Source: a virus. From it: a DNA stretch of 64,000 nucleotides. Position 1 is the first letter of the stretch; the number at the start of each line of letters is the position of its first letter. The notes beneath the pieces are model-generated. The model worked only from the letters and a program-made list of their open reading frames with translations, was not told where the DNA came from and did not search any database. The translations under genes and the position numbers were made by a program. Of the stretch, positions 28,058 to 47,557 are shown piece after piece. The stretch spans positions 57,715 to 121,714 of the IMG/VR virus record IMGVR_UViG_3300037111_000040; one strand, written 5' to 3'.

Positions 28058-28216
28058 ATGGCGGCGCAGTGTTTCCAGAAGCCCGATTCGAATCCCCCCA
28101 TCTGCGGGGTTCACAACGTTCGGCTTGTTCCAAGTGATGTGCCTTTCGATGGGAAGAAGATCGCCTGTCTGCGTTGTCCAGTGAGCCGATTCGTGGTGGA
28201 CGAAGAAAAACGTTGA
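28058..28216 (+). CDS. Small Cys-containing hypothetical protein
   Basis: Read by hand: MAAQCFQKPDSNPPICGVH...CLRCPVS... Confidence 0.4.
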   Translation: MAAQCFQKPDSNPPICGVHNVRLVPSDVPFDGKKIACLRCPVSRFVVDEEKR

Positions 28217-28241
28217 CAACCCACCAATTCCATGGAATGAT
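28213..28241 (+). promoter_or_regulatory. Sigma70-like promoter of tRNA array 1
   Basis: TTGACA 28213-28218, 17-nt spacer, AATGAT (weak -10). Confidence 0.6.
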
Positions 28242-28250
28242 GGTTTCGCT

Positions 28251-28319
28251 ATGAAGACAGTGTGCCTCAGTTCGCTCTCCTCGTATAGCTCATTACTGAG
28301 CGGTGGCGGGGGTTCGTGA
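28251..28319 (+). CDS. Attenuator leader peptide 1 (MKTVCLSSLSSYSSLLSGGGGS)
   Basis: Codons 5-17 are all Cys/Leu/Ser/Tyr, the amino acids of the downstream tRNAs. Confidence 0.8.
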   Translation: MKTVCLSSLSSYSSLLSGGGGS

Positions 28320-28347
28320 ACTGAGTCCAAAGTGGAATTCAGTCAGC

Positions 28348-28373
28348 GGCCTCCGAGAAATCGGGGGCTTTTT
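28348..28373 (+). terminator. Attenuator terminator upstream of tRNA array 1
   Basis: GGCCTCCGA-GAAA-TCGGGGGCT-TTTT; 5' arm can alternatively pair with CGGGGG at 28307-28312. Confidence 0.8.
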
Positions 28374-28380
28374 AGTTTGT

Positions 28381-28457
28381 GCCCGTGTACGCCAAATGGC
28401 AGAGCGCGACTTCTTAAAAAGGTCGGGATGGGGTTTCGAGTACCCCTGCGGGCACCA
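28381..28457 (+). tRNA. tRNA-Leu(TAA)
   Basis: GACTT-CT TAA AA-AGGTC arm, CCA end, short variable loop. Confidence 0.8.
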
Positions 28458-28458
28458 T

Positions 28459-28534
28459 GGATCGGTGGCGAAGTGTTAAACGCGGCAAGCTGCAACCTTG
28501 CTAATCGCTGGTTAAAATCCGGCCCGGTCCTCCA
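28459..28534 (+). tRNA. tRNA-Cys(GCA)
   Basis: GCAAG-CT GCA AC-CTTGC, U73, CCA. Confidence 0.85.
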
Positions 28535-28542
28535 AGTTTCAC

Positions 28543-28619
28543 GCGCGAGTAGGCAAACAGGCAAAGCCGCCAGATCGAGGGTCTGGTGTTTGGGGATTCG
28601 ATTTCCCCCTCGCGCACCA
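28543..28619 (+). tRNA. tRNA-Leu(GAG)
   Basis: CCAGA-TC GAG GG-TCTGG, CCA, short variable loop. Confidence 0.8.
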
Positions 28620-28620
28620 C

Positions 28621-28700
28621 GGGCAGGTACGCAAATTTGGCAAAGCGGCAGTCTTCAGACGGCTGTGATTTTGTGGATTCGAATTCCACTCTGCCCACCA
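28621..28700 (+). tRNA. tRNA-Leu(CAG)
   Basis: CAGTC-TT CAG AC-GGCTG, CCA. Confidence 0.8.
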
Positions 28701-28734
28701 AAGATTTGAACCATGATGGTATAATTGAACCATC

Positions 28735-29475
28735 ATGAAGTACACAAAGGAAATTCTCGAACAGGCCGTGAAAGAAAGTTTTTCAATGGCAGACGTATTG
28801 AGAAAATGCGGAGCACCAAATCTGGCTGGTGGAACATCTCACCATGTTTCGAAGAGGATTAAGGAATATGGGATCAGCACAAGCCACTTCATCGGAAAGC
28901 GTTGGCATTTAGGAAAGCCCAGTTTGAATCGAAGGGAAGCCGATTCATATTTGGTTTACCATGCAGACCTGAAAAGGCAGAGAGCAAAGGTGCTTGTGCG
29001 TTCGCTGCTCGACATTGGACGGCCATATAAGTGTTATGTTTGTGGGCTTCGCGAGTGGCGTGGAAAGAAACTGATTCTTGAGATAGAACACAAGGATGGA
29101 AACTTCCAAAACGATGTAGAGGAAAACCTAGAGTTTATTTGCCCCAATTGTCATTCCCAAACTCTTACATTTTCTCGCAGAAAGGATTCGAAGCAATTCC
29201 TCCCACCTAAGCTCAGGCCAAAGAGGCAAGGGAGAGAGGTCAGGCACCCGTCTTCGGACGGTTACTGGAGAACAAGGGACAAGCCGCGTTTGAGAAAAGT
29301 GGACCGACCGAGCCCTGTAGAATTGCAATCCTTATTGCAAACGTTGCCGATGATAAAGATTGGTGAAAAATTCGGAGTCTCTGACAACGCTGTTAGGAAG
29401 TGGATTCGGCGATATGGCATGGAGATGCCCAAGGTTTTCGGCAGGAGTCGTGGCAATAAGGATGTGCGCGTGTAG
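28735..29475 (+). CDS. HNH endonuclease inserted in tRNA array 1
   Basis: 'CYVCG...LEIEHKDGNFQND..ENLEFICPNCH' plus C-terminal HTH. Confidence 0.85.
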   Translation: MKYTKEILEQAVKESFSMADVLRKCGAPNLAGGTSHHVSKRIKEYGISTSHFIGKRWHLGKPSLNRREADSYLVYHADLKRQRAKVLVRSLLDIGRPYKCYVCGLREWRGKKLILEIEHKDGNFQNDVEENLEFICPNCHSQTLTFSRRKDSKQFLPPKLRPKRQGREVRHPSSDGYWRTRDKPRLRKVDRPSPVELQSLLQTLPMIKIGEKFGVSDNAVRKWIRRYGMEMPKVFGRSRGNKDVRV

Positions 29476-29551
29476 CAAAACGGAAAAGCGCCGGTTTTAG
29501 GCACCGGAGGGGTAACACCCATTGCGAGTTCGAGTCTCGCCACGCGCACCA
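29466..29551 (+). tRNA. tRNA-Leu(TAG)
   Basis: CCGGT-TT TAG GC-ACCGG, long variable arm, CCA. Confidence 0.85.
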
Positions 29552-29556
29552 AGTTT

Positions 29557-29634
29557 GCGGATGTGAAGGGAAACGGAATACCTCTGAAGCTCAAACCTTC
29601 AGGCTTATCGGTTCGAGGCCGATCATCCGCACCA
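29557..29634 (+). tRNA. tRNA-Leu(CAA)
   Basis: TGAAG-CT CAA AC-CTTCA, CCA. Confidence 0.8.
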
Positions 29635-29642
29635 AGTTTTAC

Positions 29643-29728
29643 GGAGCGCGGGCAGGATGGTAATGCAACGGCTTGCTAAGCCGCACAACCGCGAGGTTGA
29701 CAGTGTTCGATTCACTGGCGCTCCGCCA
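29643..29728 (+). tRNA. tRNA-Ser(GCT)
   Basis: CGGC-TT GCT AA-GCCG, long variable arm, G73-CCA. Confidence 0.9.
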
Positions 29729-29737
29729 TATTTTTAC

Positions 29738-29824
29738 GGAAGGGTGAGCGGAACGGTATCGCCCCCGGCTGGAAACCGGGTCACGTGAAAGCGTGTGCAG
29801 GTTCGACTCCTGTCCCTTCCGCCA
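29738..29824 (+). tRNA. tRNA-Ser(GGA)
   Basis: CCCGG-CT GGA AA-CCGGG, long variable arm, G73-CCA. Confidence 0.9.
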
Positions 29825-29829
29825 GTTTT

Positions 29830-29917
29830 GGAAGCGTTGGGCATTTGGCAGGCCCACCCCGTTCGAAGCGGGACACACCTTCGGGTGTTGAGCGTTCGAC
29901 TCGCTCCGCTTCCGCCA
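29830..29917 (+). tRNA. tRNA-Ser(CGA)
   Basis: CCCG-TT CGA AG-CGGG, long variable arm, G73-CCA. Confidence 0.9.
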
Positions 29918-29923
29918 AGTTTT

Positions 29924-30013
29924 GGATGGTTGGCAGAGTCTGGTTGATCGCGCTGGCCTTGAGTACCAGTAGACCGAAGGGTCTCGGGGGTTCGAATCCC
30001 TCACCATCCGCCA
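29924..30013 (+). tRNA. tRNA-Ser(TGA)
   Basis: CTGG..CT TGA GT..CCAG, long variable arm, G73-CCA. Confidence 0.85.
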
Positions 30014-30117
30014 GTTTGTAAGGGGGAGATTGACAGGTCGTGCAACAACGGTGAAGCAGTACCAGACTCCCCCTTTGGCGGCATCATGAGGCCGTCCTGA
30101 ACGGAAGTTTACCACGT

Positions 30118-30208
30118 GCGTTGGCTGGAGAGACGGTGGACTCTACCAGACTGTAAATCTGGATCATCTTCGATGACGCTGCAGGTTCAAATCCTGCCCA
30201 ACGCACCA
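30118..30208 (+). tRNA. tRNA-Tyr(GTA)
   Basis: CCAGA-CT GTA AA-TCTGG, long variable arm, CCA. Confidence 0.9.
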
Positions 30209-30233
30209 GAATTTCTGCGCTATACTCTGGCAC

Positions 30234-30617: not shown

Positions 30618-30677
30618 TTTATGCTACACTCCTGTCATTCCGTGGCAACACGGAAATACTTACGCAGGAGAAAATCA

Positions 30678-31201: not shown

Positions 31202-31278
31202 CGCGTGGTGGAGAAGCGGTCTATCTCGCCAGCCTCATAAGCTGGAGATCGAGGGTTCGAATCCCTCCCTCGCAACCA
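31202..31278 (+). tRNA. tRNA-Met(CAT), initiator-like
   Basis: CCAGC-CT CAT AA-GCTGG, C1:A72 mismatch, CCA. Confidence 0.85.
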
Positions 31279-31284
31279 TTTTTT

Positions 31285-31359
31285 GCGGGCGTATCCTAAC
31301 GGTCAGGTACTGCACTGTCTATGCAGTTCAAGCGGGTTCAACTCCCGTCGCTCGCGCCA
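31285..31359 (+). tRNA. tRNA-Asp(GTC)
   Basis: CTGCA-CT GTC TA-TGCAG, G73-CCA. Confidence 0.85.
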
Positions 31360-31363
31360 TCTT

Positions 31364-31441
31364 GTCCTGTTCGTCTAGTCTGGCCAAGGACGTGACCCTC
31401 TCAAGGTCAAAACGGCGGTTCAAATCCGCTACGGGACGCCA
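31364..31441 (+). tRNA. tRNA-Glu(CTC)
   Basis: TGACC-CT CTC AA-GGTCA, CCA. Confidence 0.9.
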
Positions 31442-31447
31442 AGCTGT

Positions 31448-31527
31448 GGGGTAGTAGAAGGTGTCTGGAATCTTTCACCTGACTTTCACTCAGGAGTTCG
31501 CGGGTTCGAATCCCGTCTGCCCCACCA
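31448..31527 (+). tRNA. tRNA-Glu(TTC)
   Basis: CCTGA-CT TTC AC-TCAGG, CCA. Confidence 0.85.
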
Positions 31528-31530
31528 TAT

Positions 31531-32088
31531 ATGAACGGTGACTCCTCAATTTGCAACAAATGTGGTAAGTCTGAGCCAGAGGTCACATTTGCGCTGCGCC
31601 TCGTAGGCGGGAGACAGTATCCGAAATATATTTGTCGAAGCTGTGATACTAAACGTAAACAAATTTGGCGGCGGTCGCGTGGAAGAACAGAAACGATAAG
31701 GTTGTCAGCGATGATTCGCCAAAGGCGCGAAAGAACAGATCGAGAGCAGATACCGCGTGTGATAGTCGTTGACTGTCGGCGATCAGATAAGAAAAAAGGA
31801 TTTGTTTGTGACCTCACGATTGAGTTCGTGAAAGAATCCATAAAAGATGGTTGCTCTTATTGTGGGGAGATAAGAATACGCGTCGGCTTAGATCGCATCG
31901 ACAATGCGTTGGGCCACTCTCAGAATAACGTCGTAGCGTGCTGTGGGCGCTGTAATTATCTCCGGAGAGATATGCCCTATGCGGCATGGATGATGCTGGT
32001 TCCACAGGTGAGAAAAATCCGAGAATCTGGGGCTTTTGGAGACTGGGATGGGTTCGGCAGATATCGAAAGGGAAAAAATAATCTGTAA
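31531..32088 (+). CDS. HNH-like endonuclease
   Basis: 'CSYCG...GLDRIDNALGHSQNNVVACCGRCN'. Confidence 0.8.
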   Translation: MNGDSSICNKCGKSEPEVTFALRLVGGRQYPKYICRSCDTKRKQIWRRSRGRTETIRLSAMIRQRRERTDREQIPRVIVVDCRRSDKKKGFVCDLTIEFVKESIKDGCSYCGEIRIRVGLDRIDNALGHSQNNVVACCGRCNYLRRDMPYAAWMMLVPQVRKIRESGAFGDWDGFGRYRKGKNNL

Positions 32089-32130
32089 AACCTCTTGACA
32101 AATTCTGCGCTTTCCTTCACTATGCTGAAT

Positions 32131-32583
32131 ATGACGTAGATCGATTCCAAGACGTACTTTTACCTCTTCGTTCGGCAAGACCTCCCCATCGCTGCACAGA
32201 TCGTGCAGACGAACCACGCGACATTTGATATGGCTTACACGCTCACCCAGAGCGCCGATCCTTCTACGCCTTCCATCGTGCTCATAGGCGTTCCCGACAA
32301 AAAAGCGCTTCACAAGGTAATCCAGAAGCTCAAGCTGAATCGCATCGAGTTCTCGGAGTTCCACGAGAGCGATGACGATCTGGGACTCACTGCGGTCGCG
32401 ACGATTCCTCTCGACGAGGATCAGCGCGCGGTGCTCCAGAACTACAAGCTTTGGAACGAAAACAATTTGACATACGCGCCTAGCTCAGTGGTCAGAGCGC
32501 CGTTGCAGTCTGACGGAGGTCCGAGGTTCGAATCCTTGGGCGCGTACCAACGGGCGGATAGCTCGACTATGCAGGAGGTGTGA
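32131..32583 (+). CDS. PTH2-like peptidyl-tRNA hydrolase with in-frame TAG at codon 3
   Basis: ATG ACG TAG ATC GAT...; frame continues 'YFYLFVRQDLPIAAQIVQTNHA...IVLIGV...FHESD...LTAVA...YKLW'; TTGACA at 32095. Confidence 0.7.
32474..32549 (+). tRNA. tRNA-like element, anticodon AGT (Thr), inside the PTH2-like ORF
   Basis: 76 nt; ACGCGCC/GGCGCGT acceptor, TAGCTCAGTGG D arm, GGTTCGAATCC T arm, CCA; atypical loop GC AGT CT. Confidence 0.7.
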
Positions 32584-34189: not shown

Positions 34190-34218
34190 TTGACAGTTTT
34201 CCTGATTGATTATATCGT
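34190..34218 (+). promoter_or_regulatory. Sigma70-like promoter of tRNA array 2
   Basis: TTGACA-17 nt-TATCGT. Confidence 0.7.
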
Positions 34219-34225: not shown

Positions 34226-34297
34226 GTGAGAACCCGATTCCATAACGCAGCGACACAGCCGACGCAACCAGCCGGTAATAGCGGCGGTGCGGACTAG
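34226..34297 (+). CDS. Attenuator leader peptide 2 (MRTRFHNAATQPTQPAGNSGGAD)
   Basis: GTG 7 nt after -10; codons match the 12 downstream anticodons. Confidence 0.8.
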   Translation: MRTRFHNAATQPTQPAGNSGGAD

Positions 34298-34339
34298 GGG
34301 TCTCAGACAGATTTTTTCCTAACACAGATGGAAAAACTT

Positions 34340-34380
34340 GAGACCCCCAGAACCGAAAGGAACTGGGGGTTCTCGTTTGT
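34340..34380 (+). terminator. Attenuator terminator upstream of tRNA array 2
   Basis: GAGACCCCCAG...CTGGGGGTTCTC-GTTTGT; competing 9-bp helix GGGGTCTCA(34297-34305)/TGAGACCCC(34339-34347). Confidence 0.8.
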
Positions 34381-34388
34381 GGGGATGT

Positions 34389-34463
34389 TCAAGGGTAGCT
34401 CAATGGTAGAGCCCACGGCTGTTAACCGTGTCGTTGTGGGTCCGACTCCCACCCCTTGAGCCA
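34389..34463 (+). tRNA. tRNA-Asn(GTT)
   Basis: CACGG-CT GTT AA-CCGTG, CCA. Confidence 0.9.
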
Positions 34464-34473
34464 GTTTAGAAGT

Positions 34474-34549
34474 TGGCTCTTCGTTCAATGGTTGAGGACC
34501 TTCGCCTCTGGAGCGAATGATCTGGGTTCGAGTCCCGGAGAGCCAGCCA
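34474..34549 (+). tRNA. tRNA-Gln(CTG)
   Basis: TTCGC-CT CTG GA-GCGAA, CCA. Confidence 0.9.
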
Positions 34550-34561
34550 AGTTTGAGTTGT

Positions 34562-34635
34562 TCCCGGTTCGTTCAGTGGCAGGACGTGGGCCTTTGGAAC
34601 CCAACACGGGAGTTCGATTCTCCCACCGGGTGCCA
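34562..34635 (+). tRNA. tRNA-Gln(TTG)
   Basis: TGGG..CT TTG GA..CCCA, CCA. Confidence 0.85.
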
Positions 34636-34636
34636 C

Positions 34637-34710
34637 GCGGGGTTGATGTAGCGGTAGCATCGAAGTGTGCCACACTTTGCGCATCGGTTCGAACCCGATA
34701 CCCCGCTCCA
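34637..34710 (+). tRNA. tRNA-Gly(GCC)
   Basis: GAAGT-GT GCC AC-ACTTT, U73-CCA. Confidence 0.85.
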
Positions 34711-34789
34711 CTTTGGAGGAAGAAGAATGAAGATCGATTTGAACGCCGACATGCAGCATGTTTTCGCACGGTTGGCGAAAGGATTTCGA

Positions 34790-34864
34790 GCACCGTTAGT
34801 TGAGTCGGCACAACACGACCCTCGTAACGTCGAAGCCCCGGTTCGATTCCGGGACGGTGCTCCA
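34790..34864 (+). tRNA. tRNA-Thr(CGT)
   Basis: CGAC..CT CGT AA..GTCG, CCA. Confidence 0.85.
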
Positions 34865-34897
34865 CAGATTGACGAGAGGTAGAAGAAAGGGGATTCC

Positions 34898-35443
34898 ATG
34901 GCACTCATACGGAGAGCGGTACTACAACTTAACGCGTCGTATGAGCCGCTGAGAATCGTCAGCGCGCGAAAGGCGCTCACGCTCATAACCAAGGGCGTTG
35001 CCGTGGTGGAGGTGCCAACCAGCATCCAAGTCCACAAGGGAATCTACCTTCCTTCCGTCATCCGTTTGCGGCACTACAGGAACGTCCCGCACCGGATGCA
35101 GCAGGTTTCGAGGAAGAACATTTTCATTCGCGACGGTTTCAGGTGCATGTACTGCGGCGCGAAGAAGAACAACGGGGCAGAGCTTGAACTGGAGCACGTG
35201 ATCCCGAGAAGCAGAGGTGGTAAGCAGTCATGGGACAACCTTGTTGCTGCCTGTTCCCCGTGCAATAGACGTAAGAACAACCGGACGCCGGAAGAGGCTG
35301 GAATGAAGTTGATCCATAGGCCGCTGCCCGCGAATATCTTTACAAGCCGCTTCATTTTGAAACAGCTTGGCAGAGAAGTTGAGGAATGGGGAAAGTTCCT
35401 TTTTTCTGATTCCGAAGGCGAAACGAGGTTACAATTTAGGTAA
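34898..35443 (+). CDS. HNH endonuclease (McrA/HNH_5-like)
   Basis: 'VLQLNASYEPL...RDGFRCMYCG...EHVIPRSRGG..SWDNLVAACSPCN..KNNRTPEEAGM'. Confidence 0.9.
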   Translation: MALIRRAVLQLNASYEPLRIVSARKALTLITKGVAVVEVPTSIQVHKGIYLPSVIRLRHYRNVPHRMQQVSRKNIFIRDGFRCMYCGAKKNNGAELELEHVIPRSRGGKQSWDNLVAACSPCNRRKNNRTPEEAGMKLIHRPLPANIFTSRFILKQLGREVEEWGKFLFSDSEGETRLQFR

Positions 35444-35446
35444 AAG

Positions 35447-36169
35447 ATGCGCAAACTCGTCGGCAAAATTTACTTAATTCGTAATCTCGCGAACGGCAAG
35501 GGGTACGTCGGCCAGACCACGAAACAAACTGTGTGGATAAGGTTCAACCAGCACAAATACGAGGTCAAGCGCGGAAGCAATCTGCCCATACATAGGGCGA
35601 TGAGAAAGTGGGGAGTTGAAAACTTCACAGTTATCGAAGTCGCCTCGTGTGATCCACTTTTGCTCGACGATCTCGAAAAGCACTTCATCAAATTCTACAA
35701 AACCTACATCACAAGCGGTCGCGGCTATAACAGGACGGCAGGAGGGTACAGCGGATTCAACAGAGACGGAATCAGGATTCTTACAGAAAAGGGAAGCTCG
35801 ACACTTTCAGATGTCCATAAGGGAAACTCTTATGCCAAGGGGCACAAAGTATCGGAAGAAGGAAGAGCGAGAATGGCCGAGGCTGCTAGAAATAGAGGAC
35901 CGGTAACGCGCTCGCCAGAGTTGAGGGCCAGAATCTCGGCCACCTTGAAAGGACACCCTGTTGCAGAGGAATCGAGAGCGAAGATGTCAGCGTCGCACAA
36001 GGGGGTAAAAGTCGGCTACCGGAAACGCAGGCCGATGTCGGATGAGCACAAGGCGAAGATTTCCGCGAGTATGCGTGGAAAGAGGAAAACTCCGGAGTCC
36101 ATAGCCAAGAGACTTGCGACTTGTGCTTTGCTTAACACGGGTGACACAAGATACCAGTTTGTTAACTAA
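35447..36169 (+). CDS. GIY-YIG homing endonuclease with NUMOD3-like repeats
   Basis: 'GKIYLIRNLANGKGYVGQT...GYNRTAGG'; 'SEEGRARMA', 'EESRAKMS', 'SDEHKAKIS'. Confidence 0.9.
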   Translation: MRKLVGKIYLIRNLANGKGYVGQTTKQTVWIRFNQHKYEVKRGSNLPIHRAMRKWGVENFTVIEVASCDPLLLDDLEKHFIKFYKTYITSGRGYNRTAGGYSGFNRDGIRILTEKGSSTLSDVHKGNSYAKGHKVSEEGRARMAEAARNRGPVTRSPELRARISATLKGHPVAEESRAKMSASHKGVKVGYRKRRPMSDEHKAKISASMRGKRKTPESIAKRLATCALLNTGDTRYQFVN

Positions 36170-36213
36170 CATAAATGTTCGTTATCGTCTCCAAATTTTG
36201 CTATACTCGGGAG

Positions 36214-36939
36214 ATGAAAAACGAAGAAAGGCGAAAAGCTGCTCGGAGGCGGTGGTACTACAGGAACAGGAAATCCAAGAAGGTGTTGAAGTCGCGAATT
36301 CCTGACGTACCGCTGCTTTCTGTTGAGGAACGTAAGACTATTAGCAGGGCGAATGCTGTGGTTGCGCTGGCGAAAGCTCATGCTAAAGCAAAAATCAAAT
36401 CGGATCAGATACAACGTAAGAGAGAAGAGCGTCGATGCGTAATTTGCGGCGGTCCTGTTCTCGTTAAGAATCTGAAAGCAAAATCGTGCTCGGTGAGATG
36501 CGCGAAGATCGCCAGACGAAAAAGAAGAGAGAATTGGGAAAAGGCTTGCGCGTACTGCGGTTCCACATGTTCTGGTCAGAACAAGTATTGCGACGACTGC
36601 AACAAAAGCCAAATCTACAAGATGGCTCAGTCTACTGAAGATGTAAGCGATTCAAAGGCTGTCAAGCGTCTGGTGCTTCGGAGAAGAGGACACAGATGCG
36701 AAGGATGCGGTTTAGATCAGTGGATGGGAAAAGCCATCCCGCTTGAACTTCACCATGTGGACGGGGATTCAGAGAATAACAAAGATGAGAACCTGCAACT
36801 TCTCTGTCCTAATTGCCACGCTTTGACTCCAACGTTTCGTAATCGAAACAAAAGGAAGGCGAGCGAAAGAAGAAGAAAGATAAGAAAGACGAGAGAGTTT
36901 GCCGAAGTAGCTCAAGAGGAAGTAGCGGCGGTTTTGTGA
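36214..36939 (+). CDS. HNH endonuclease inserted in tRNA array 2
   Basis: 'CEGCG...LELHHVDGDSENNKDENLQLLCPNCH'. Confidence 0.85.
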   Translation: MKNEERRKAARRRWYYRNRKSKKVLKSRIPDVPLLSVEERKTISRANAVVALAKAHAKAKIKSDQIQRKREERRCVICGGPVLVKNLKAKSCSVRCAKIARRKRRENWEKACAYCGSTCSGQNKYCDDCNKSQIYKMAQSTEDVSDSKAVKRLVLRRRGHRCEGCGLDQWMGKAIPLELHHVDGDSENNKDENLQLLCPNCHALTPTFRNRNKRKASERRRKIRKTREFAEVAQEEVAAVL

Positions 36940-36976
36940 ACCGCTGATGGGATTTCGAGTATCCCCTTCGGCCCCA
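36901..36976 (+). tRNA. tRNA-Thr(TGT)
   Basis: GCGGT-TT TGT GA-ACCGC, CCA. Confidence 0.8.
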
Positions 36977-37059
36977 AGCTCACTGGGACACGCGGAATCT
37001 CCCGCTTACGGGCGGGAGGGTGCTACCAAGCTATAACGTGTCCCGGTAGCGCGATTCAT

Positions 37060-37138
37060 GGCGGTGTTGGCAGAGCGGTCTATTGCGCGTGTCTGTGGCA
37101 CACGTATTACATCGGTTCGAATCCGATACGCCGCCCCA
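37060..37138 (+). tRNA. tRNA-His(GTG)
   Basis: CGTGT-CT GTG GC-ACACG, G-1:C73, CCA. Confidence 0.9.
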
Positions 37139-37147
37139 AAGTTTTAC

Positions 37148-37223
37148 GGGCCTATAGCTCATTTAGGAGAGCGCCGCACTTGCAATGCGGAGGCGGTCGG
37201 GGCGGAGCCGACTAGGTCCACCA
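37148..37223 (+). tRNA. tRNA-Ala(TGC)
   Basis: CCGCA-CT TGC AA-TGCGG, G3:U70, CCA. Confidence 0.9.
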
Positions 37224-37553
37224 AGTTTGACTGGTGCCTCACCTGTAACGACGTAAGGGTGAAGGCGTCACGGGTCGCACGTCGCAAGGTAGAGGCCCGC
37301 TAAGTTTTTAGGAGAAATATGCGTCAATTCATAAAGCGATCCGAGCGCGGTTTTTCTCAGCGAAGACATGAGGGAGATTTGCGTAGGAGAAAGCAGTTCG
37401 CAAGCAAGATCGCGGATTGTTTCTTTGCTGAGAGTCCTTTCCAGCGGATGCTCATGAGGTGTGGACGCGCTCGGAAGCTGATGCAGGCATATCGCGCGAA
37501 GAAGATGATTCGCAGGCCGAGCAACTTTCGGCAGGATGTTTGGCAAGAGTTTT

Positions 37554-37629
37554 GTCGATTGAGCTAGTGCAGTCATAGCGTCCGCCTGAAGAGCGGAAGA
37601 ACTCGGGGCAGCACCGGGAGTCGACACCA
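37554..37629 (+). tRNA. tRNA-Phe(GAA)
   Basis: TCCGC-CT GAA GA-GCGGA, CCA; atypical T loop. Confidence 0.8.
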
Positions 37630-37630
37630 T

Positions 37631-37707
37631 CGGGGAGGGGCGCGGTCAGGTAGCGCTTCGGTCTCGGGTACCGAAGGTCATGGGTTCGAATCCCATCTCC
37701 CCGACCA
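37631..37707 (+). tRNA. tRNA-Pro(CGG)
   Basis: TCGGT-CT CGG GT-ACCGA, CCA. Confidence 0.9.
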
Positions 37708-37720
37708 TTTTGGAAGTCAC

Positions 37721-37797
37721 ACGGGTGTAGCGAAGTCTGGAAACGCACCTGCTTTGGGAGCAGGGGATCGGGGGTTCAAATCCCTCCACCCGTACCA
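37721..37797 (+). tRNA. tRNA-Pro(TGG)
   Basis: CCTGC-TT TGG GA-GCAGG, CCA. Confidence 0.9.
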
Positions 37798-37807
37798 TTT
37801 TGAATGA

Positions 37808-37884
37808 GGGCCTATAGCGTAGTTGGATGACGCGGCAGACTACGAATCTGTTATACGGGGGTTCGAATCCCTCTAGGCCCTCCA
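37808..37884 (+). tRNA. tRNA-Arg(ACG)
   Basis: GCAGA-CT ACG AA-TCTGT, CCA. Confidence 0.9.
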
Positions 37885-45051: not shown

Positions 45052-45155
45052 CCGCCTTTCGTATCAACCCCTAAAGGGGCTGAACTCTTGACGACCAGCT
45101 ATCCATCCCCGAGCTGAAGCACGGGGCTTTTCGCTGAACTCAGGTAATTTTTTAC

Positions 45156-45184
45156 TTGCAAAGAATCCGAAACAGGTGTAGGCT
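45156..45184 (+). promoter_or_regulatory. Sigma70-like promoter of tRNA array 3
   Basis: TTGCAA-17 nt-TAGGCT. Confidence 0.65.
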
Positions 45185-45191
45185 GAATTTC

Positions 45192-45281
45192 GTGCAGATA
45201 AGGTCCAAATCCGTGAGAACCTCCATGACCGGGACCAAGCGGGTCATTTGGGGAGTTGTGCGCGAGGGTTGGGACGACTAA
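45192..45281 (+). CDS. Attenuator leader peptide 3 (MQIRSKSVRTSMTGTKRVIWGVVREGWDD)
   Basis: GTG 7 nt after -10; codons match the 12 downstream anticodons. Confidence 0.8.
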   Translation: MQIRSKSVRTSMTGTKRVIWGVVREGWDD

Positions 45282-45306
45282 TCTGCAATCAGATTCGAGT
45301 CCACAG

Positions 45307-45339
45307 ACCCTCGGCTCAGGCCGGGGGTTTTTGTTGTTT
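45307..45339 (+). terminator. Attenuator terminator upstream of tRNA array 3
   Basis: ACCCTCGGC-TCAG-GCCGGGGGT-TTTTGTTGTTT; competing helix CGAGGGT(45263-45269)/ACCCTCG(45307-45313). Confidence 0.8.
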
Positions 45340-45347
45340 GACAATAC

Positions 45348-45423
45348 GGGGGCGTAAGCTTAGCGGCTAAACTGTCGGATTCCAAACCCGAACTCGCAGG
45401 TTCGAGTCCTGCCGCCCCCGCCA
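45348..45423 (+). tRNA. tRNA-Trp(CCA)
   Basis: TCGG..TT CCA AA..CCGA, G73-CCA. Confidence 0.9.
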
Positions 45424-45428
45424 TATTT

Positions 45429-45502
45429 GCCGCGTACCCGAGATGGGACGACGCTCTCATAAGGCGTTCGGAGTAAGGGTTCGCTTCCCTCGCGCGGCAC
45501 CA
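45429..45502 (+). tRNA. tRNA-Met/Ile2(CAT)
   Basis: ACGCT-CT CAT AA-GGCGT, CCA; short D arm. Confidence 0.75.
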
Positions 45503-45511
45503 AGTGTTGTT

Positions 45512-45605
45512 GGGGGATAGCATCGGCTGTGCGGCGGAGCCTTATAAACTCTGGAGAGCGCCAGATTAGCGCAACGGCACGGTTCAACTCCGTGATCCCC
45601 TACCA
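45512..45605 (+). tRNA. tRNA-Ile(TAT) with long variable arm
   Basis: GGAG..CT TAT AA..CTCT; extra GCGC/GCGC arm; CACGG/CCGTG T stem; CCA. Confidence 0.75.
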
Positions 45606-45606
45606 T

Positions 45607-45683
45607 CCCGACGTAGCTCAAATGGGCAGAGCAACCGGCTCTTAACCGGAAGGTTGGAGGATCGTGGCCTCTCGTCGGGACCA
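45607..45683 (+). tRNA. tRNA-Lys(CTT)
   Basis: CCGG-CT CTT AA-CCGG, CCA. Confidence 0.85.
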
Positions 45684-45689
45684 AGTTAC

Positions 45690-45764
45690 GGGATGCAAGC
45701 TTTAATGCTGAAGCAACCGGCTTTTAACCGGAAGAACGGGGATGGTTACCCCGGCATCCCACCA
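45690..45764 (+). tRNA. tRNA-Lys(TTT)
   Basis: CCGG-CT TTT AA-CCGG, CCA; atypical T loop. Confidence 0.8.
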
Positions 45765-45765
45765 T

Positions 45766-45840
45766 GAGCCTATCGTCTAACGCATAAGACGCCGGTCTTC
45801 TAAACCGAGAATCTGAGTTGAACTCTCAGTGGGCTCTCCA
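45766..45840 (+). tRNA. tRNA-Arg(TCT)
   Basis: CGGT-CT TCT AA-ACCG, CCA. Confidence 0.85.
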
Positions 45841-45841
45841 T

Positions 45842-45917
45842 CAACTCGTGGTGAAAATGGAGATCACGGAAACCTCCTAAGTTTCAGTTCTGGATTCGAG
45901 TTCCAGCGGGTTGACCA
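45842..45917 (+). tRNA. tRNA-Arg(CCT)
   Basis: GAAAC-CT CCT AA-GTTTC, CCA. Confidence 0.85.
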
Positions 45918-45924
45918 AAGTTTT

Positions 45925-45999
45925 GCAGGCGTGGTGAAACGGAAATCACAGAGGTCTCCGGAACCTCAATTCGCAGTTCAAATCTGCGCGCTTGCACCA
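45925..45999 (+). tRNA. tRNA-Arg(CCG)
   Basis: GAGGT-CT CCG GA-ACCTC, CCA. Confidence 0.85.
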
Positions 46000-46000
46000 T

Positions 46001-46074
46001 GGGGGATTAGTTCAACGGAAGAACACCTGTCTTACAAGCAGGCTACGAGGGCTCGACTCCTTCATCCCCCACCA
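46001..46074 (+). tRNA. tRNA-Val(TAC)
   Basis: CCTGT-CT TAC AA-GCAGG, CCA. Confidence 0.9.
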
Positions 46075-46081
46075 AATTTTG

Positions 46082-46156
46082 GGCCGGATAGGTTAACGAG
46101 AAAACCTCTTGCTCGGTAAGCAAGAATTGTCGGGGCAGTTCCGACTCTGGCCTCCA
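46082..46156 (+). tRNA. tRNA-Thr(GGT)
   Basis: CTTGC-TC GGT AA-GCAAG, CCA. Confidence 0.8.
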
Positions 46157-46160
46157 TTTT

Positions 46161-46234
46161 GTACCTGTCGTCCAACGGTAGGACGCACGCCCGATTAGCG
46201 TGTCATCGCGGTTCAAATCCGTGCAGGTACACCA
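46161..46234 (+). tRNA. tRNA-Ile(GAT)
   Basis: CACGC-CC GAT TA-GCGTG, A73-CCA. Confidence 0.8.
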
Positions 46235-46237
46235 AAT

Positions 46238-46699
46238 TTAGCGGCGCTTTTTGCGTTGGTGTGGACACCCACCGTAAAACTGTTTGGCTGCGTTGCAATT
46301 GTGACATAGAACTTGGAATATCGGAGGAAAGTTGTTTGCGATCAGCCAATAATACAATTGGGTGCCGTGTCCTACTTCGCGTCGATGTTTTCTACCATTT
46401 CCGTTGATGTGGTCGAGGGCTAAAAACTCGATAGTATCTTCGCCGCAGCACGCACACTTCGGGTGATTACCTCCGTAAGCTACAAGGCACTGGAGCCGTT
46501 TGCCTTGATTTCGCGCCTTGTGGAGAGTTGAAAGGCGAGCCTTGTTGCGCTCTCTGTATTCTTTTGAGTAGCCACTCATATATTCTGAGTGACACAACTT
46601 ACATCTCCCATCTGGAACGCGCATTCCATGCGACGTGCGCGTTGGGAAAGAAGTAATACGTTTACGGGATTTGCACTGGTTGCAAACTTTTGTTTTCAT
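46238..46699 (-). CDS. HNH-like endonuclease
   Basis: 'CACCGE...LALDHINGNG...FQVLCHNCN'. Confidence 0.8.
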   Translation of the reverse strand: MKTKVCNQCKSRKRITSFPTRTSHGMRVPDGRCKLCHSEYMSGYSKEYRERNKARLSTLHKARNQGKRLQCLVAYGGNHPKCACCGEDTIEFLALDHINGNGRKHRREVGHGTQLYYWLIANNFPPIFQVLCHNCNAAKQFYGGCPHQRKKRR

Positions 46700-46723
46700 G
46701 CTAAGATTCCCAATGGGGGAGAG

Positions 46724-47182
46724 ATGATTAGCAGCAAGGATTGGAGGTACCTGAAATATATTTTAGCCCATAAGCGATTTGTTTTCCAAGCTGGTCTAAA
46801 ATTTAGGGTACCAATTTGGAGACTGATAATCCACGACTACTCCAAATTTTTCCCCGTCGAGTGGATCGCGTATCGGGAATTCTTTTACGGCGAGCGGACA
46901 CAGGTGGTCAAGGATGCGTTCAGGATAGCGTGGCTGCACCACATCCACCTGAACAAGCACCACTGGAACCACTGGGTGTATTCGGACGAGAGCAGCACAC
47001 CGGTTCTGGAAATGCCAGAGATTTATCTTCGGGAGATGCTGGCCGATTGGTGGGGAGCCGGACGCGCGATCTTCGGAGTCTGGCGCGCGGATCAGTGGTA
47101 CGAAGAAAAGCGAGATGTGATCGTGCTTCACCCAAAGACGCAGGCCGAGGTGGAGAGGCGATTGACGAGTGTAAAGTTTTAG
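46724..47182 (+). CDS. HD-like phosphohydrolase-family protein (DUF5662-like)
   Basis: 'HK..V...HDYSKF...AWLHHIHLNKHHW...EMP...EMLADW'. Confidence 0.65.
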   Translation: MISSKDWRYLKYILAHKRFVFQAGLKFRVPIWRLIIHDYSKFFPVEWIAYREFFYGERTQVVKDAFRIAWLHHIHLNKHHWNHWVYSDESSTPVLEMPEIYLREMLADWWGAGRAIFGVWRADQWYEEKRDVIVLHPKTQAEVERRLTSVKF

Positions 47183-47224
47183 TGGGGCTGGTATCGGGTA
47201 GAATGGGCTCACGGGAGGTGACCG

Positions 47225-47482
47225 ATGGGCATGTTTTACGTGAATGCAGAAACCACGCTGCTGGATGATGAGTTCTTGATCGAGGCCGACGATTTTGTAA
47301 GCGCGACGATGAAGGCACTCGATTTCTTACGCGAGTTAGACAACAGAGTGGCGAAGCACCTCGGTGAGCCGGTCGCTGATTCGAAGATCATCACGCTCAA
47401 CGAAATCAAGGCGATCTGGGCAAACGAAGAAGGCATCCAGAAATGCCTTGAGAGGCTAGAAGCACATCAAGAAGACGAATAA
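47225..47482 (+). CDS. Hypothetical protein
   Basis: GGAGG RBS; 85 aa. Confidence 0.55.
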   Translation: MGMFYVNAETTLLDDEFLIEADDFVSATMKALDFLRELDNRVAKHLGEPVADSKIITLNEIKAIWANEEGIQKCLERLEAHQEDE

Positions 47483-47557
47483 GCGGGGCTGGTATATGGG
47501 TTGCTGCCTCAGCCTTCCAAGCTGAAGAAACGGGTTCGAGTCCCGTGCCCCGCTCCA
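47483..47557 (+). tRNA. tRNA-Gly(TCC)
   Basis: TCAGC-CT TCC AA-GCTGA, U73-CCA. Confidence 0.9.

What the first reader, a model, noticed from the sequence alone, without database searches (positions are those of the whole stretch)
28213..47557. Codon-matched leader-peptide attenuators gate three phage tRNA operons: a candidate tRNA-depletion sensor
Seen: the three large tRNA arrays (from 28381, 34389 and 45348) each follow the same layout. It is promoter, 22-29 codon ORF, G-rich arm at or near the stop codon, then terminator hairpin whose 5' arm is complementary to that G-rich arm. The three leaders are unrelated in sequence, yet each is built from the codons read by its own array. The tRNAs are split between arrays with no repeated anticodon, and 34 of 35 have a cognate or wobble codon in their own leader (exception: Leu-CAA). 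Established: in trp/his/thr-type attenuation a ribosome reaching the leader stop masks the antiterminator, while stalling permits read-through; phage tRNAs can offset host anticodon nucleases. Inference: the phage monitors 11-12 tRNA species per leader and transcribes the replacement set only when one is cleaved or uncharged. I know of no described attenuator that controls tRNA genes through a multi-codon panel, but did not search.
Basis: partly seen in the sequence, partly recalled or inferred. Interest (0 to 1): 0.97.

Follow-up and report, generated by a model that had tools for sequence, protein, structure and literature searches.

The report
Leader-peptide attenuators gating phage tRNA arrays
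A 122-kb phage places each main block of its tRNA genes behind a tiny test gene, spelled in the codons those tRNAs read and wired to a switchable transcription stop, so it probably throttles tRNA production according to how fast ribosomes read those codons.

Summary
Three short ORFs (28251-28319, 34226-34297, 45192-45281) each lie between a promoter-like site and a terminator hairpin, just upstream of a tRNA array. Their codons match their own array far better than the other arrays, the other frames or random ORFs. Three unexplained leader-3 codons (ATA, AAA, ACC) led to three low-scoring tRNAs in array 3. In folds of the nascent RNA the terminator's 5' arm pairs with a G-rich stretch at the stop codon unless a ribosome sits there.

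The layout recurs with other amino-acid panels in a 105-kb relative, three 230-460-kb phages and four cultured Brevundimonas phages. In 24 arrays of five phages the own-array score exceeded all 200,000 shuffled pairings.

Corrections:
- 34 of 39 tRNAs, not 34 of 35, have a codon in their own leader. Met, Asp, Glu x2 and Leu-CAA do not.
- Anticodon CAT is repeated.
- The arrays are broken up by homing-endonuclease genes.
- The untranslated state predicts read-through.

Best reading (0.7): ribosome-mediated attenuation acting as feedback on tRNA supply. Nothing here shows translation or 3' ends. Seven literature searches found no description. This scan noted the same thing earlier on other phage DNA.

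The parts
28213..28241 (+). Promoter-like site of leader 1 (TTGACA, 17 nt, AATGAT with TG before it). The -10 hexamer ends 9 nt before the ATG.
   Evidence: 10 of 12 matches; sequence read
28251..28319 (+). Leader ORF 1, 22 codons plus TGA. Codons 5-17 (28263-28301) are 13 consecutive Cys/Leu/Ser/Tyr codons.
   Evidence: 14 of 21 codons are read by the first 11 tRNAs downstream, P 3e-5 against in-frame windows of long ORFs. The other two frames give 4 of 21 each.
28307..28315 (+). G-rich 5' strand of antiterminator 1, in the Gly codons just before the stop
   Evidence: partners of 8 of the 9 nt of the terminator's 5' arm. The pairing is lost when the ribosome A-site is at codon 19 or later. 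Dinucleotide shuffles reach this in 2.5% of 200.
28348..28380 (+). Terminator 1: 9-bp hairpin 28348-28369 (-15.6 kcal/mol) with U-tract
28381..30208 (+). Array 1a: Leu-TAA, Cys-GCA, Leu-GAG, Leu-CAG, then an ORF at 28735-29475 (no Pfam family), then Leu-TAG, Leu-CAA, Ser-GCT, Ser-GGA, Ser-CGA, Ser-TGA, Tyr-GTA
   Evidence: 10 of 11 tRNAs have a codon in leader 1.
31202..32549 (+). Met-CAT, Asp-GTC, Glu-CTC, Glu-TTC (31202-31527) and Thr-AGT (32474-32549). These are not represented in leader 1, apart from ACA for Thr-AGT, and have promoter-like sites of their own. They probably lie outside the attenuator's panel.
34190..34218 (+). Promoter-like site of leader 2 (TTGACA, 17 nt, TATCGT). The -10 hexamer ends 7 nt before the GTG.
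   Evidence: 10 of 12 matches
34226..34297 (+). Leader ORF 2, 23 codons plus TAG. It has one or two codons for each tRNA of array 2.
   Evidence: 16 of 22 codons are read by array 2 (P 1.6e-4). 11 of 11 tRNAs are covered (P 5e-4). 9 of 11 are covered by exact Watson-Crick codons, reached by 0 of 200,000 random windows.
34294..34304 (+). 5' strand of antiterminator 2; it overlaps the stop codon
   Evidence: partners of 10 of the 11 nt of the terminator's 5' arm. All are lost with the A-site at codon 22 or at the stop.
34340..34384 (+). Terminator 2: hairpin 34340-34374 (-21.2 kcal/mol) with a poor U-tract
   Evidence: not listed or found
34389..37884 (+). Array 2: Asn-GTT, Gln-CTG, Gln-TTG, Gly-GCC, Thr-CGT, then HNH, GIY-YIG and HNH genes, then Thr-TGT, His-GTG, Ala-TGC, Pro-CGG, Pro-TGG, Arg-ACG
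45156..45184 (+). Putative promoter of leader 3 (TTGCAA, 17 nt, TAGGCT). It is a weak match. Its position is conserved in the relative G001, and the -10 hexamer ends 7 nt before the GTG.
   Evidence: read by eye; below the threshold
45192..45281 (+). Leader ORF 3, 29 codons plus TAA, with codons ATA, AGG, AAA, GTG, AGA, ACC x3, ATG, GGG, AAG, CGG, ATT, TGG x2 and GGA
   Evidence: 17 of 28 codons are read by the 12-tRNA array (P 8e-4) and 12 of 12 tRNAs are covered (P 1e-4).
45260..45270 (+). 5' strand of antiterminator 3 (CGAGGGT region)
   Evidence: shuffles reach it in 8.5% of 200. GAGGGT and ACCCTC are invariant in G001 while the lower terminator stem changes on both sides.
45305..45340 (+). 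Terminator 3: 11-pair hairpin 45305-45330 with U-tract, the highest-ranked hairpin of the 20-kb scan
45348..47557 (+). Array 3: Trp-CCA, Met-CAT, Ile-TAT (45512-45605), Lys-CTT, Lys-TTT (45690-45764), Arg-TCT, Arg-CCT, Arg-CCG, Val-TAC, Thr-GGT (46082-46156), Ile-GAT and, further downstream, Gly-TCC (47483-47557)
   Evidence: The three low-scoring tRNAs are called at default settings in the relative G001.

Best explanation
The three elements are ribosome-mediated transcription attenuators of the trp/his/thr type, but they control tRNA genes.

Proposed sequence of events: transcription starts a few bases before the start codon, so the leader mRNA is leaderless or nearly so. A ribosome then translates a 22-29-codon ORF that holds one or two codons for each of the 10-12 tRNA species encoded just downstream.
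- Fast decoding. The ribosome reaches the last codons or the stop while RNA polymerase is making the terminator. It covers the G-rich stretch there, the terminator's 5' arm stays free, the hairpin forms and transcription stops before the array.
- Slow decoding. If any panel codon is read slowly because its charged tRNA is scarce, the ribosome lags. The G-rich stretch pairs with the terminator's 5' arm and polymerase reads into the array.

The tRNAs made are the ones that relieve the stall, so each module is a negative-feedback loop that sets the supply of its own tRNA set. A drop in a host tRNA, including cleavage by an anticodon nuclease, would also induce it.

Shown from sequence: the layout, the codon match, the alternative helices, and their recurrence and conservation. 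Inferred: translation of the leaders, termination at the hairpins, the direction of the switch in vivo, and the physiological trigger.
For: 1. Codon match.
- Own pairings give 14 of 21, 16 of 22 and 17 of 28 codons. Cross pairings give 1-10.
- Against in-frame windows of long ORFs, P is 3e-5, 1.6e-4 and 8e-4.
- The other two frames of the same DNA give 4, 4, 11, 6, 7 and 6.

2. A prediction that came true. Leader-3 codons ATA, AAA and ACC x3 had no tRNA among the default calls. Relaxed ARAGORN and Rfam then found Ile-TAT, Lys-TTT and Thr-GGT inside array 3. All three are called at default settings in the relative G001.

3. Helix switch. In folds of the nascent RNA up to the terminator's 5' arm, 8 of 9, 10 of 11 and 7-9 of 11 nt of that arm (varying with ribosome position) pair with the stretch at the stop codon. 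The pairing is lost when a 30-nt footprint sits on the last codons or the stop.

4. Signals. Two of the three best + strand promoter matches, and the first- and third-ranked hairpins of the 20-kb scan, are the ones next to leaders.

5. Conservation of design.
- G001's leader 1 has a re-ordered peptide of the same Cys/Leu/Ser/Tyr make-up, now including TTG for Leu-CAA, and a different but still complementary antiterminator pair.
- G001's leader 3 keeps GAGGGT and ACCCTC, while the lower terminator stem changes on both sides.

6. Recurrence.
- In 24 arrays of 5 phages, the best short ORF in the 650 nt upstream scores highest against its own array in 17.
- The summed own score is 62.6 against 33.1 +/- 4.9 for shuffled pairings; 0 of 200,000 shuffles reach it.
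- Without the window's phage it is 52.5 against 27.9 +/- 4.3, again 0 of 200,000.
- Panels seen are Ile/Thr/Gln, Val/Ala/Gly/Cys/Asp/Glu, Tyr/Leu, Pro/Met/Phe, Ser and Trp/His/Arg/Asn/Gln/Lys.

7. Cultured phages. Four Brevundimonas phages have a leader of about 43 codons built of Thr/Leu/Ser/His/Lys/Pro/Ala. It covers 13 of 13, 13 of 13, 14 of 14 and 12 of 13 tRNAs of the array behind it.
Against: - No direct data. The only RNA evidence is contigs from 4 metatranscriptome runs, which cannot show ends or strand and may contain DNA.
- The predicted transcription starts leave 0-3 nt before the start codon, and two of the three starts are GTG. That is a poor initiation context in E. coli. The host is unknown and the starts are only predicted.
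- At equilibrium the full-length RNA folds into the terminator in nearly every ribosome state, so the switch must be kinetic.
- The untranslated nascent RNA also forms the antiterminator. There is no clear trp-style 1:2 protector helix.
- L2's terminator has a poor U-tract.
- The shuffle control for the antiterminator is only modest: 2.5% for L1, 8.5% for L3, 6.5% for G001 L1.
- In 10 leaders from the large (230-460-kb) phages and the L028 contig, the arm that pairs with the terminator lies 20-45 nt before the stop. A ribosome parked at the stop would not cover it, so timing rather than parking must decide there.
- 5 of 39 tRNAs have no codon in their leader. Some leader codons (TCC x3 in L3, TTC and GCC in L2) have no tRNA in their own array.
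- G001's leader 3 lacks AGG although Arg-CCT is present. The Bajun phage's leader keeps Lys and Ala codons although ARAGORN found no Lys or Ala tRNA in its array.
Confidence: 0.7

Rival explanations
1. Same parts, opposite logic. Translation of the leader is needed for read-through, because a ribosome following the polymerase closely suppresses the terminator or opens a protector helix. The arrays would then be transcribed only while translation of these codons works. That is feed-forward, not feedback.
For: - In 10 leaders from the large phages and the L028 contig, a hairpin spans the stop codon and abuts the terminator. A ribosome at the stop does not cover the arm that pairs with the terminator.
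- A published abstract reports that a terminator placed a few base pairs after a gene is almost completely repressed (PMC4824070; I saw the search listing and abstract only).
Against: - In the window the stop codon lies 29, 43 and 24 nt before the terminator stem. That is too far for a ribosome at the stop to reach the hairpin.
- Nascent folds put the antiterminator in the untranslated and the stalled states, and free the terminator arm only when the ribosome is at the end of the ORF.
- A panel of exactly the array's own codons makes functional sense for feedback. It makes little sense for feed-forward.
Confidence: 0.1
2. The hairpins are ordinary terminators or insulators, or processing signals, in front of the tRNA arrays. 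The short ORFs are untranslated, and their codon make-up is a by-product of composition or chance.
For: - Short ORFs are plentiful: 838 of 18-35 codons in the genome. tRNA coverage alone discriminates poorly; 21 of 838 short ORFs cover at least 10 of the 11 array-1a tRNAs.
- The start contexts are poor.
- The shuffle controls for the antiterminator are modest.
Against: - The match is specific to the frame and to the array.
- It recurs with different amino-acid panels in other phages. No shuffled pairing out of 200,000 reaches the observed score, even without the window's phage.
- The make-up of the leader is kept while the peptide order changes.
- Unexplained codons predicted tRNAs that were then found.
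Confidence: 0.07
3. The leader RNA or its peptide works in another way. The RNA could bind tRNA anticodons directly, T-box style, or act as a sponge. The ORF could act as a minigene that loads chosen tRNAs as peptidyl-tRNA. Or the small peptide could act in trans.
For:
- The liberated trp attenuator RNA and its leader peptide act in trans in Sinorhizobium (PMC6614838, PMC7298713; abstracts seen).
Against: - No T-box or other known leader family matched at E up to 1.
- Thirteen adjacent in-frame codons suit a ribosome, not single tRNA contacts.
- The peptide sequence is not conserved, only its make-up.
- The terminator and antiterminator pair is conserved, which points to control in cis.
- Pfam did not confirm the PTH2 assignment.
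Confidence: 0.05

Closest known systems
Multivalent leader-peptide attenuators of enterobacterial amino-acid operons: thr leader (Thr, Ile), ilvGMEDA leader (Ile, Leu, Val), also trpL, hisL, leuL, pheL. The details of these systems are recalled, not from a call. The abstracts of PMC3082878 and PMC6614838 were seen.
   Same: A short ORF between promoter and first gene. Control codons chosen for what the operon supplies. An intrinsic terminator with a mutually exclusive antiterminator, where the ribosome's position decides. The terminator is more stable than the antiterminator.
   Different: - The controlled genes are tRNA genes, not biosynthetic enzymes.
- The panel holds 7-8 amino acids and 10-12 isoacceptors, mostly one or two codons each, instead of runs of one to three amino acids.
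- There is no clear 1:2 protector helix, so the untranslated state predicts read-through.
- The mRNA appears near-leaderless.
- No Rfam leader family matches.
pheST (pheM leader) attenuation of phenylalanyl-tRNA synthetase in E. coli (recalled, from no call)
   Same: Leader-peptide attenuation applied to a gene of the translation apparatus, sensing charged tRNA of the matching kind.
   Different: It senses one amino acid and controls a protein-coding synthetase gene of the cell. It does not control tRNA genes and is not viral.
T-box riboswitches (mechanism recalled)
   Same: They sense tRNA status by codon-anticodon pairing and switch between terminator and antiterminator.
   Different: T-boxes read one uncharged tRNA directly, without a ribosome, through a specifier loop and the T-box sequence. 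No T-box match was found. Here there is an ORF with a multi-codon panel.
Inducible long tRNA array (trn operon) of Anabaena sp. PCC 7120 under the repressor TrcR (PMC8421152, PMC10272220; passages read)
   Same: A supernumerary, horizontally spread tRNA array that is normally low and is induced when translation is impaired.
   Different: Control there acts at the promoter, through direct repeats bound by a protein repressor. The words 'leader peptide', 'attenuat' and 'terminator' occur 0 times in either text. The array is cellular, not phage, and has no codon-matched sensor.
Phage tRNAs as a counter to anticodon nucleases (PMC10264068, passages read; PARIS preprint 10.1101/2024.01.02.573894, abstract seen)
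   Same: Gives a reason why a phage would want replacement tRNAs when host tRNAs are cleaved.
   Different: Those papers concern the tRNAs themselves (anticodon-loop changes, rescue of infection). In PMC10264068, 'promoter' and 'terminator' occur 0 times. No regulatory leader is described.

Membership tests
Ribosome-mediated leader-peptide transcription attenuators | Short ORF in the transcribed leader between promoter and first controlled gene | tested here: met
   ORFs 28251-28319, 34226-34297 and 45192-45281 lie between promoter-like sites and the arrays.
Ribosome-mediated leader-peptide transcription attenuators | Control codons enriched for what the operon supplies | tested here: met
   14 of 21, 16 of 22 and 17 of 28 codons are read by the own array, with P 3e-5, 1.6e-4 and 8e-4. 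The match is frame-specific. Across phages, 0 of 200,000 shuffled pairings reach the observed score.
Ribosome-mediated leader-peptide transcription attenuators | Intrinsic terminator before the first controlled gene | tested here: met
   Hairpins at 28348-28369 and 45305-45330 with U-tracts. The hairpin at 34340-34374 (-21.2 kcal/mol) has a poor U-tract and was seen only by folding.
Ribosome-mediated leader-peptide transcription attenuators | Antiterminator that excludes the terminator and is masked by a ribosome at the end of the ORF | tested here: met
   Nascent folds with 30-nt footprints for all three leaders. The shuffle control is modest: 2.5% and 8.5%. In 10 leaders from the large phages and L028 the arm lies outside a stop-codon footprint.
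Ribosome-mediated leader-peptide transcription attenuators | Protector or pause helix (1:2) that gives termination without translation | tested here: inconclusive
   The full-length fold of L1 pairs the G-rich stretch with CUCUCCUCG inside the ORF. The nascent folds of all three prefer the antiterminator when no ribosome is present.
Ribosome-mediated leader-peptide transcription attenuators | Leader is translated, and read-through rises when the cognate charged tRNA is scarce | not testable with these tools
   Only contigs from RNA libraries were available. They show no ends, no strand and no ribosomes.
Ribosome-mediated leader-peptide transcription attenuators | Sequence and structure match to a curated leader family (Rfam His, Leu, Thr, Trp, Leu/Phe leaders) | tested here: not met
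   cmscan of 27000-48500 at E up to 1 gave tRNA hits and a few weak unrelated hits, and no leader family.
T-box riboswitch | Stem I with specifier loop and the conserved T-box sequence in the antiterminator | tested here: not met
   No T-box match at E up to 1.
Repressor-controlled inducible tRNA L-array (Anabaena TrcR type) | [quoted passage not shown] | not tested
   I made no search for such repeats. Passages of PMC8421152 and PMC10272220 were read.

The most novel reading that the evidence does not exclude
tRNA-rich phages of several unrelated lineages run each block of tRNA genes as a self-contained homeostat. These include this 122-kb peat phage, 230-460-kb phages and cultured phiCbK-like Brevundimonas phages. 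A multi-codon leader measures decoding speed for exactly the isoacceptors encoded behind it, and sets their transcription by attenuation. The same chassis of Gly-codon G-run, stop codon and terminator (in several leaders the ORF ends in ...EGWDD) has been re-spelled for different panels. The module also acts as a tripwire that replaces tRNAs cut by host anticodon nucleases. This would be the first attenuator known to control tRNA genes, and the most multivalent one.
Probability: 0.5. Interest if true: 0.92.

Novelty: new variant of a known kind. Interest (0 to 1): 0.88.

Why it matters
How phages regulate their own tRNA genes, and why they carry them, is an old open question. Codon compensation and escape from anticodon nucleases are the two current ideas; both are named in the abstract and passages of PMC10264068 seen.

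A codon-matched attenuator would show that the phage measures decoding speed codon by codon and makes tRNAs on demand. It would extend a textbook mechanism to a new class of genes. It would also be the most multivalent attenuator known, with 10-12 isoacceptors per leader.

The leaders give a sequence-only read-out of which tRNAs a phage treats as one regulatory unit. They even predict unannotated, non-canonical tRNAs, as happened here.

The design also occurs in cultured Brevundimonas phages, so the idea can be tested directly at the bench.

Tried and rejected
- Close cultured relatives of the window's phage: none. The best blastn hit in 'phages' covers 3% of 28000-32600, and the hits are tRNA genes only.
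- Exact or degenerate DNA patterns from L1 and L3 found only the one relative, G001, in viral contigs.
- I found no relative of leader 2. G001 lacks array 2 in the 60 kb fetched. The flanking protein 33469-34182 gave one irrelevant locus. A degenerate L2 pattern found 0 metagenome contigs. A tRNA-Asn pattern found one 1.4-kb tRNA-dense contig with no leader before the Asn gene.
- A fourth leader for Met/Asp/Glu/Glu: the ORF 31126-31197 has no Asp or Glu codons. Rejected.
- Equilibrium folds of the full leaders favour the terminator in nearly all ribosome states. I therefore used nascent-RNA folds.
- My terminator finder missed L2 and two leaders of the large phages, and picked doubtful hairpins for G001 L3 and G002 PMF. 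Those rows are not used.
- tRNA coverage alone is a weak statistic: 21 of 838 short ORFs cover at least 10 of the 11 array-1a tRNAs. I relied on the fraction of codons read and on cross-array permutation.
- Metatranscriptome contigs (runs X16, X20, X21, X22) cover parts of 27800-47700. Pieces at 34268-34496 and 34272-34511 span the 3' part of L2, its terminator and the first tRNAs. They show neither ends nor strand and may be DNA. The bins without cover prove nothing.
- Pfam found no family for 28735-29475, 30621-31163, 31531-32088, 32140-32470 or 39894-41480. The HNH, PTH2-like and Ro60-like labels for these are therefore unverified.
- Literature: seven searches found no paper on leader-peptide control of tRNA genes.

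Full report
WHAT THE WINDOW IS. The window is the right-hand 64 kb of a single 121,714-bp virus record. All of the record's tRNA genes lie in the window, on the + strand, between 28381 and 47557. No cultured phage in the phage collection is a close relative: the best hit covers 3% of a 4.6-kb query, and the hits are tRNA genes. Near-identical DNA occurs in peat and permafrost metagenome runs.

THE OBSERVATION. Reading the three upstream regions confirms three short ORFs:
- L1, 28251-28319: MKTVCLSSLSSYSSLLSGGGGS
- L2, 34226-34297: MRTRFHNAATQPTQPAGNSGGAD
- L3, 45192-45281: MQIRSKSVRTSMTGTKRVIWGVVREGWDD

The consensus scan of 27800-47700 puts 10-of-12 promoter matches at 28213-28241 and 34190-34218. 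These are two of the three best + strand promoter matches. It ranks the hairpins at 45305-45330 and 28348-28369 first and third. L3's promoter (TTGCAA 45156, TAGGCT 45179) is weak and was read by eye. L2's hairpin (34340-34374, -21.2 kcal/mol) has a poor U-tract and was not listed.

In all three leaders, and in both homologues in the relative G001, the -10 hexamer ends 7-9 nt before the start codon. The leader mRNAs would therefore be leaderless or nearly so.

tRNA CONTENT. ARAGORN at default settings tRNAs, not 35. At 95% thresholds it adds Lys-TTT (45690-45764), Thr-GGT (46082-46156) and a tRNA-like Lys-CTT (38323-38394). At 90% it adds Ile-TAT (45512-45605). Rfam scores 46082-46153 at 42.8 bits, above the cut-off, and 45691-45760 at 23.4 bits, below it. 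These three anticodons read exactly the leader-3 codons that had no tRNA before: AAA, ACC x3 and ATA. In the relative G001 all three tRNAs are called at default settings. I found no Phe tRNA. Anticodon CAT occurs twice.

CODON MATCH. I used standard wobble rules: G34 reads C/U, C34 reads G, U34 reads A/G, A34 reads U/C/A.
- Leader codons read by the own array are 14 of 21 (L1 against its first 11 tRNAs), 16 of 22 (L2) and 17 of 28 (L3 against the 12-tRNA array). Cross pairings give 1-10.
- tRNAs with a codon in their own leader are 11 of 16, 11 of 11 and 12 of 12, so 34 of 39. Leu-CAA, Met-CAT, Asp and both Glu tRNAs have none. The Met/Asp/Glu/Glu block and Thr-AGT have promoter-like sites of their own.
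- Against 200,000 in-frame windows from 154 long ORFs, the probability of as many own-array codons is 3.0e-5, 1.6e-4 and 8.1e-4. L2 covers 9 of 11 tRNAs with exact Watson-Crick codons, which 0 windows reached.
- Coverage alone discriminates poorly. 21 of 838 short ORFs cover at least 10 of the 11 array-1a tRNAs.
- The other two frames of the same DNA give 4 and 4 (L1), 11 and 6 (L2), and 7 and 6 (L3) own-array codons.
- With the peptides kept and synonymous codons redrawn from phage usage, the observed coverage is reached with pooled P 0.008 (exact) and 0.025 (wobble). No single leader is significant alone. Matching at the isoacceptor level therefore has moderate support.

STRUCTURE. Full-length equilibrium folds mostly keep the terminator, as expected when the choice is kinetic. 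I then folded the nascent RNA up to the end of the terminator's 5' arm. That arm pairs with 28307-28315 (8 of 9 nt), with 34294-34304 (10 of 11 nt, overlapping the TAG) and with 45260-45270 (7-9 of 11 nt, varying with ribosome position). The pairing persists with a 30-nt footprint on early or middle codons. It is lost when the A-site is at codon 19 or later (L1), codon 22 or later (L2), or codon 22 or later (L3). With no ribosome the antiterminator also forms, so the default is read-through and fast translation is the brake.

Dinucleotide shuffles of the upstream part reach the observed pairing in 2.5% (L1) and 8.5% (L3) of 200. That is modest on its own. No Rfam leader or T-box family matches.

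RELATIVES. G001 is a 105-kb contig, estimated 89% complete. It has the same array-1a content behind a leader MKTLSLSSCLYLSSSEGWVD. The make-up is the same, the order differs, and TTG for Leu-CAA is now present. Its antiterminator pair is different but still complementary, GAGGGTTGG with CCAGCCCTC.

G001's leader 3 is 85% identical to ours in the aligned region. GAGGGT and ACCCTC are invariant, while the lower terminator stem changes on both sides, CGGC/GCCG to TCTC/GAGA. An HNH gene has been inserted between that terminator and the Trp tRNA. Its array 3 has the same 12 anticodons, yet its leader lacks AGG. I found no relative of L2.

RECURRENCE IN OTHER PHAGES. Searching with a conserved ORF from the tRNA region brought in tRNA-rich phages of 230-460 kb. 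A scan that used no prior choice of ORF found short ORFs, each followed by a terminator and then an array of the matching amino acids:
- MKQTQTTRTTTTQRI... before Ile/Thr/Gln arrays
- VCAGEAGTVAAGAAVED... before Val/Ala/Gly/Cys/Asp/Glu arrays
- ...SLSLSLLYSLLSG... before Tyr/Leu arrays
- MMRPFTMFRPCMPTM... before Pro/Met/Phe arrays
- MNRISSLSSSSSSF... before a Ser array
- MKHNTVARKQWRNRRH... before a Trp/His/Arg/Asn/Gln/Lys array

For 24 arrays in 5 phages I took the best-scoring short ORF in the 650 nt upstream against every array of the same phage, so own and cross pairings were treated alike. The own array wins in 17 of 24. The summed own score is 62.6 against 33.1 +/- 4.9 for shuffled pairings (maximum 55.3; 0 of 200,000 reach it). 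Without the window's phage it is 52.5 against 27.9 +/- 4.3, again 0 of 200,000. The 7 misses are mostly continuation blocks, suppressor-tRNA blocks, or arrays with an inserted gene.

In the large-phage leaders a run of Gly codons after the panel pairs with the terminator's 5' arm, but it lies 20-45 nt before the stop. A ribosome parked at the stop would not cover it. Several leaders of different panels end alike, in ...EGWDD or ...EGWVD. This suggests one chassis re-spelled for different panels.

CULTURED PHAGES. Brevundimonas phage vB_BpoS-Papperlapapp has a TTGACA promoter-like site. It is followed by an ORF from GTG 18520 whose first 33 residues after the start are all Thr, Leu, Ser, His, Lys, Pro or Ala. 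Then come GGT GGC, a strong terminator, and an array of Pro, Thr, Lys, Leu, His, Ala and Ser tRNAs. Blastn found 8 Brevundimonas phage records matching the leader region, 7 of them over at least 80% of the query, at 70-100% identity. In the four I fetched, the leader covers 13 of 13, 13 of 13, 14 of 14 and 12 of 13 array tRNAs. The Bajun phage keeps Lys and Ala codons although ARAGORN found no Lys or Ala tRNA in its array.

EXPRESSION. Contigs of four metatranscriptome runs cover parts of the region. Two pieces (34268-34496, 34272-34511) span the end of L2, its terminator and the first tRNAs. Contigs show no ends or strand, and DNA may be present. This is a weak hint that read-through molecules exist, no more.

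MECHANISM. The best reading is classical ribosome-mediated attenuation turned onto tRNA genes. Slow decoding of any panel codon leaves the G-rich arm free to pair with the terminator's 5' arm, and polymerase enters the array. Quick decoding brings the ribosome over that arm and the terminator forms. Because the array supplies the tRNAs its leader tests, each module is a feedback loop. Induction by tRNA cleavage would follow from the same logic but is not shown. The rivals are opposite logic, incidental ORFs, and direct RNA or peptide action. They are weighed in their own sections.

LITERATURE. Seven full-text searches returned no paper on a leader peptide or attenuator in front of tRNA genes. 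The nearest case is the inducible tRNA array of Anabaena, which is controlled at its promoter by the repressor TrcR. In both papers 'leader peptide', 'attenuat' and 'terminator' occur 0 times (passages read). PMC10264068 on phage tRNAs and anticodon nucleases has 0 occurrences of 'promoter' and 'terminator'. Supplements were closed. Earlier notes of this scan describe the same kind of element on other phage genomes, and they too report no publication. I count them as leads, not as evidence.

VERDICT. This is a real, non-random, conserved regulatory layout. It is a new variant of a known mechanism. Its function is inferred, and it can be tested in cultured phages.

Noticed in passing
window 37760-39087 and 39894-41480: A stretch with a weak YrlA (Y RNA-like) Rfam hit (38190-38271, 27.9 bits, cut-off 69) and a tRNA-like Lys-CTT (38323-38394). 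It has the highest contig depth of the whole 20 kb in all four RNA libraries (10.7-27.3 in the first of its two bins).
   Followed up: partly
window 43482-45051: An IS605-type TnpB gene (43482-44624, minus strand; OrfB_IS605 1e-28, Cas12f1-like TNB 4e-22) and an adjoining 151-aa ORF (44596-45051) that looks by eye like a Y1 transposase. They sit directly upstream of leader 3.
   Followed up: partly
window 34898-36939; also 28735-29475 and 31531-32088: HNH (34898-35443, 36175-36939) and GIY-YIG/NUMOD3 (35447-36169) homing-endonuclease genes split array 2. The ORFs inside array 1 have HNH-like motifs by eye but no Pfam hit.
   Followed up: partly
window 45512-45605, 45690-45764, 46082-46156: Three non-canonical tRNAs missed at default settings: Ile-TAT with a long variable arm, Lys-TTT with an odd T-arm, and Thr-GGT with C instead of U at position 33.
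   Followed up: yes
window 32131-32583: An ORF conserved in tRNA-rich phages (50-58% identity in 14 viral contigs) runs on into the tRNA-Thr-AGT gene. Its relatives sit next to phage tmRNA genes and amber-suppressor (CTA) tRNAs.
   Followed up: partly
L006 18755-19222 (relative G001): After the leader-3 terminator comes the 5' half of a tRNA-Trp, up to the anticodon loop, then an HNH ORF, then a complete tRNA-Trp. This looks like the scar of a homing-endonuclease insertion or an intron-like arrangement.
   Followed up: no
window 34716-34882: A strong Shine-Dalgarno-like GGAGG, then an ATG at 34727, opens a 51-codon ORF that overlaps tRNA-Thr-CGT (34790-34864).
   Followed up: no
window 34297: One RNA-library contig (run X21, depth 15.9) lacks one base at the G-run that forms the leader-2 antiterminator arm. 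It is either a strain variant or an assembly error.
   Followed up: no
L040 18468-18651 (Brevundimonas phage vB_BpoS-Papperlapapp): The record annotates a minus-strand hypothetical CDS (18468-18620) where the + strand carries the codon-matched leader. In phage Bajun the leader itself is annotated as a hypothetical protein (BAJUN_02440).
   Followed up: partly
window 27981-28184: A second 10-of-12 promoter match (27981-28008) lies 230 nt upstream of leader 1's promoter, followed by a 53-codon ORF. The stretch around 28085-28110 resembles a tRNA T-arm.
   Followed up: no
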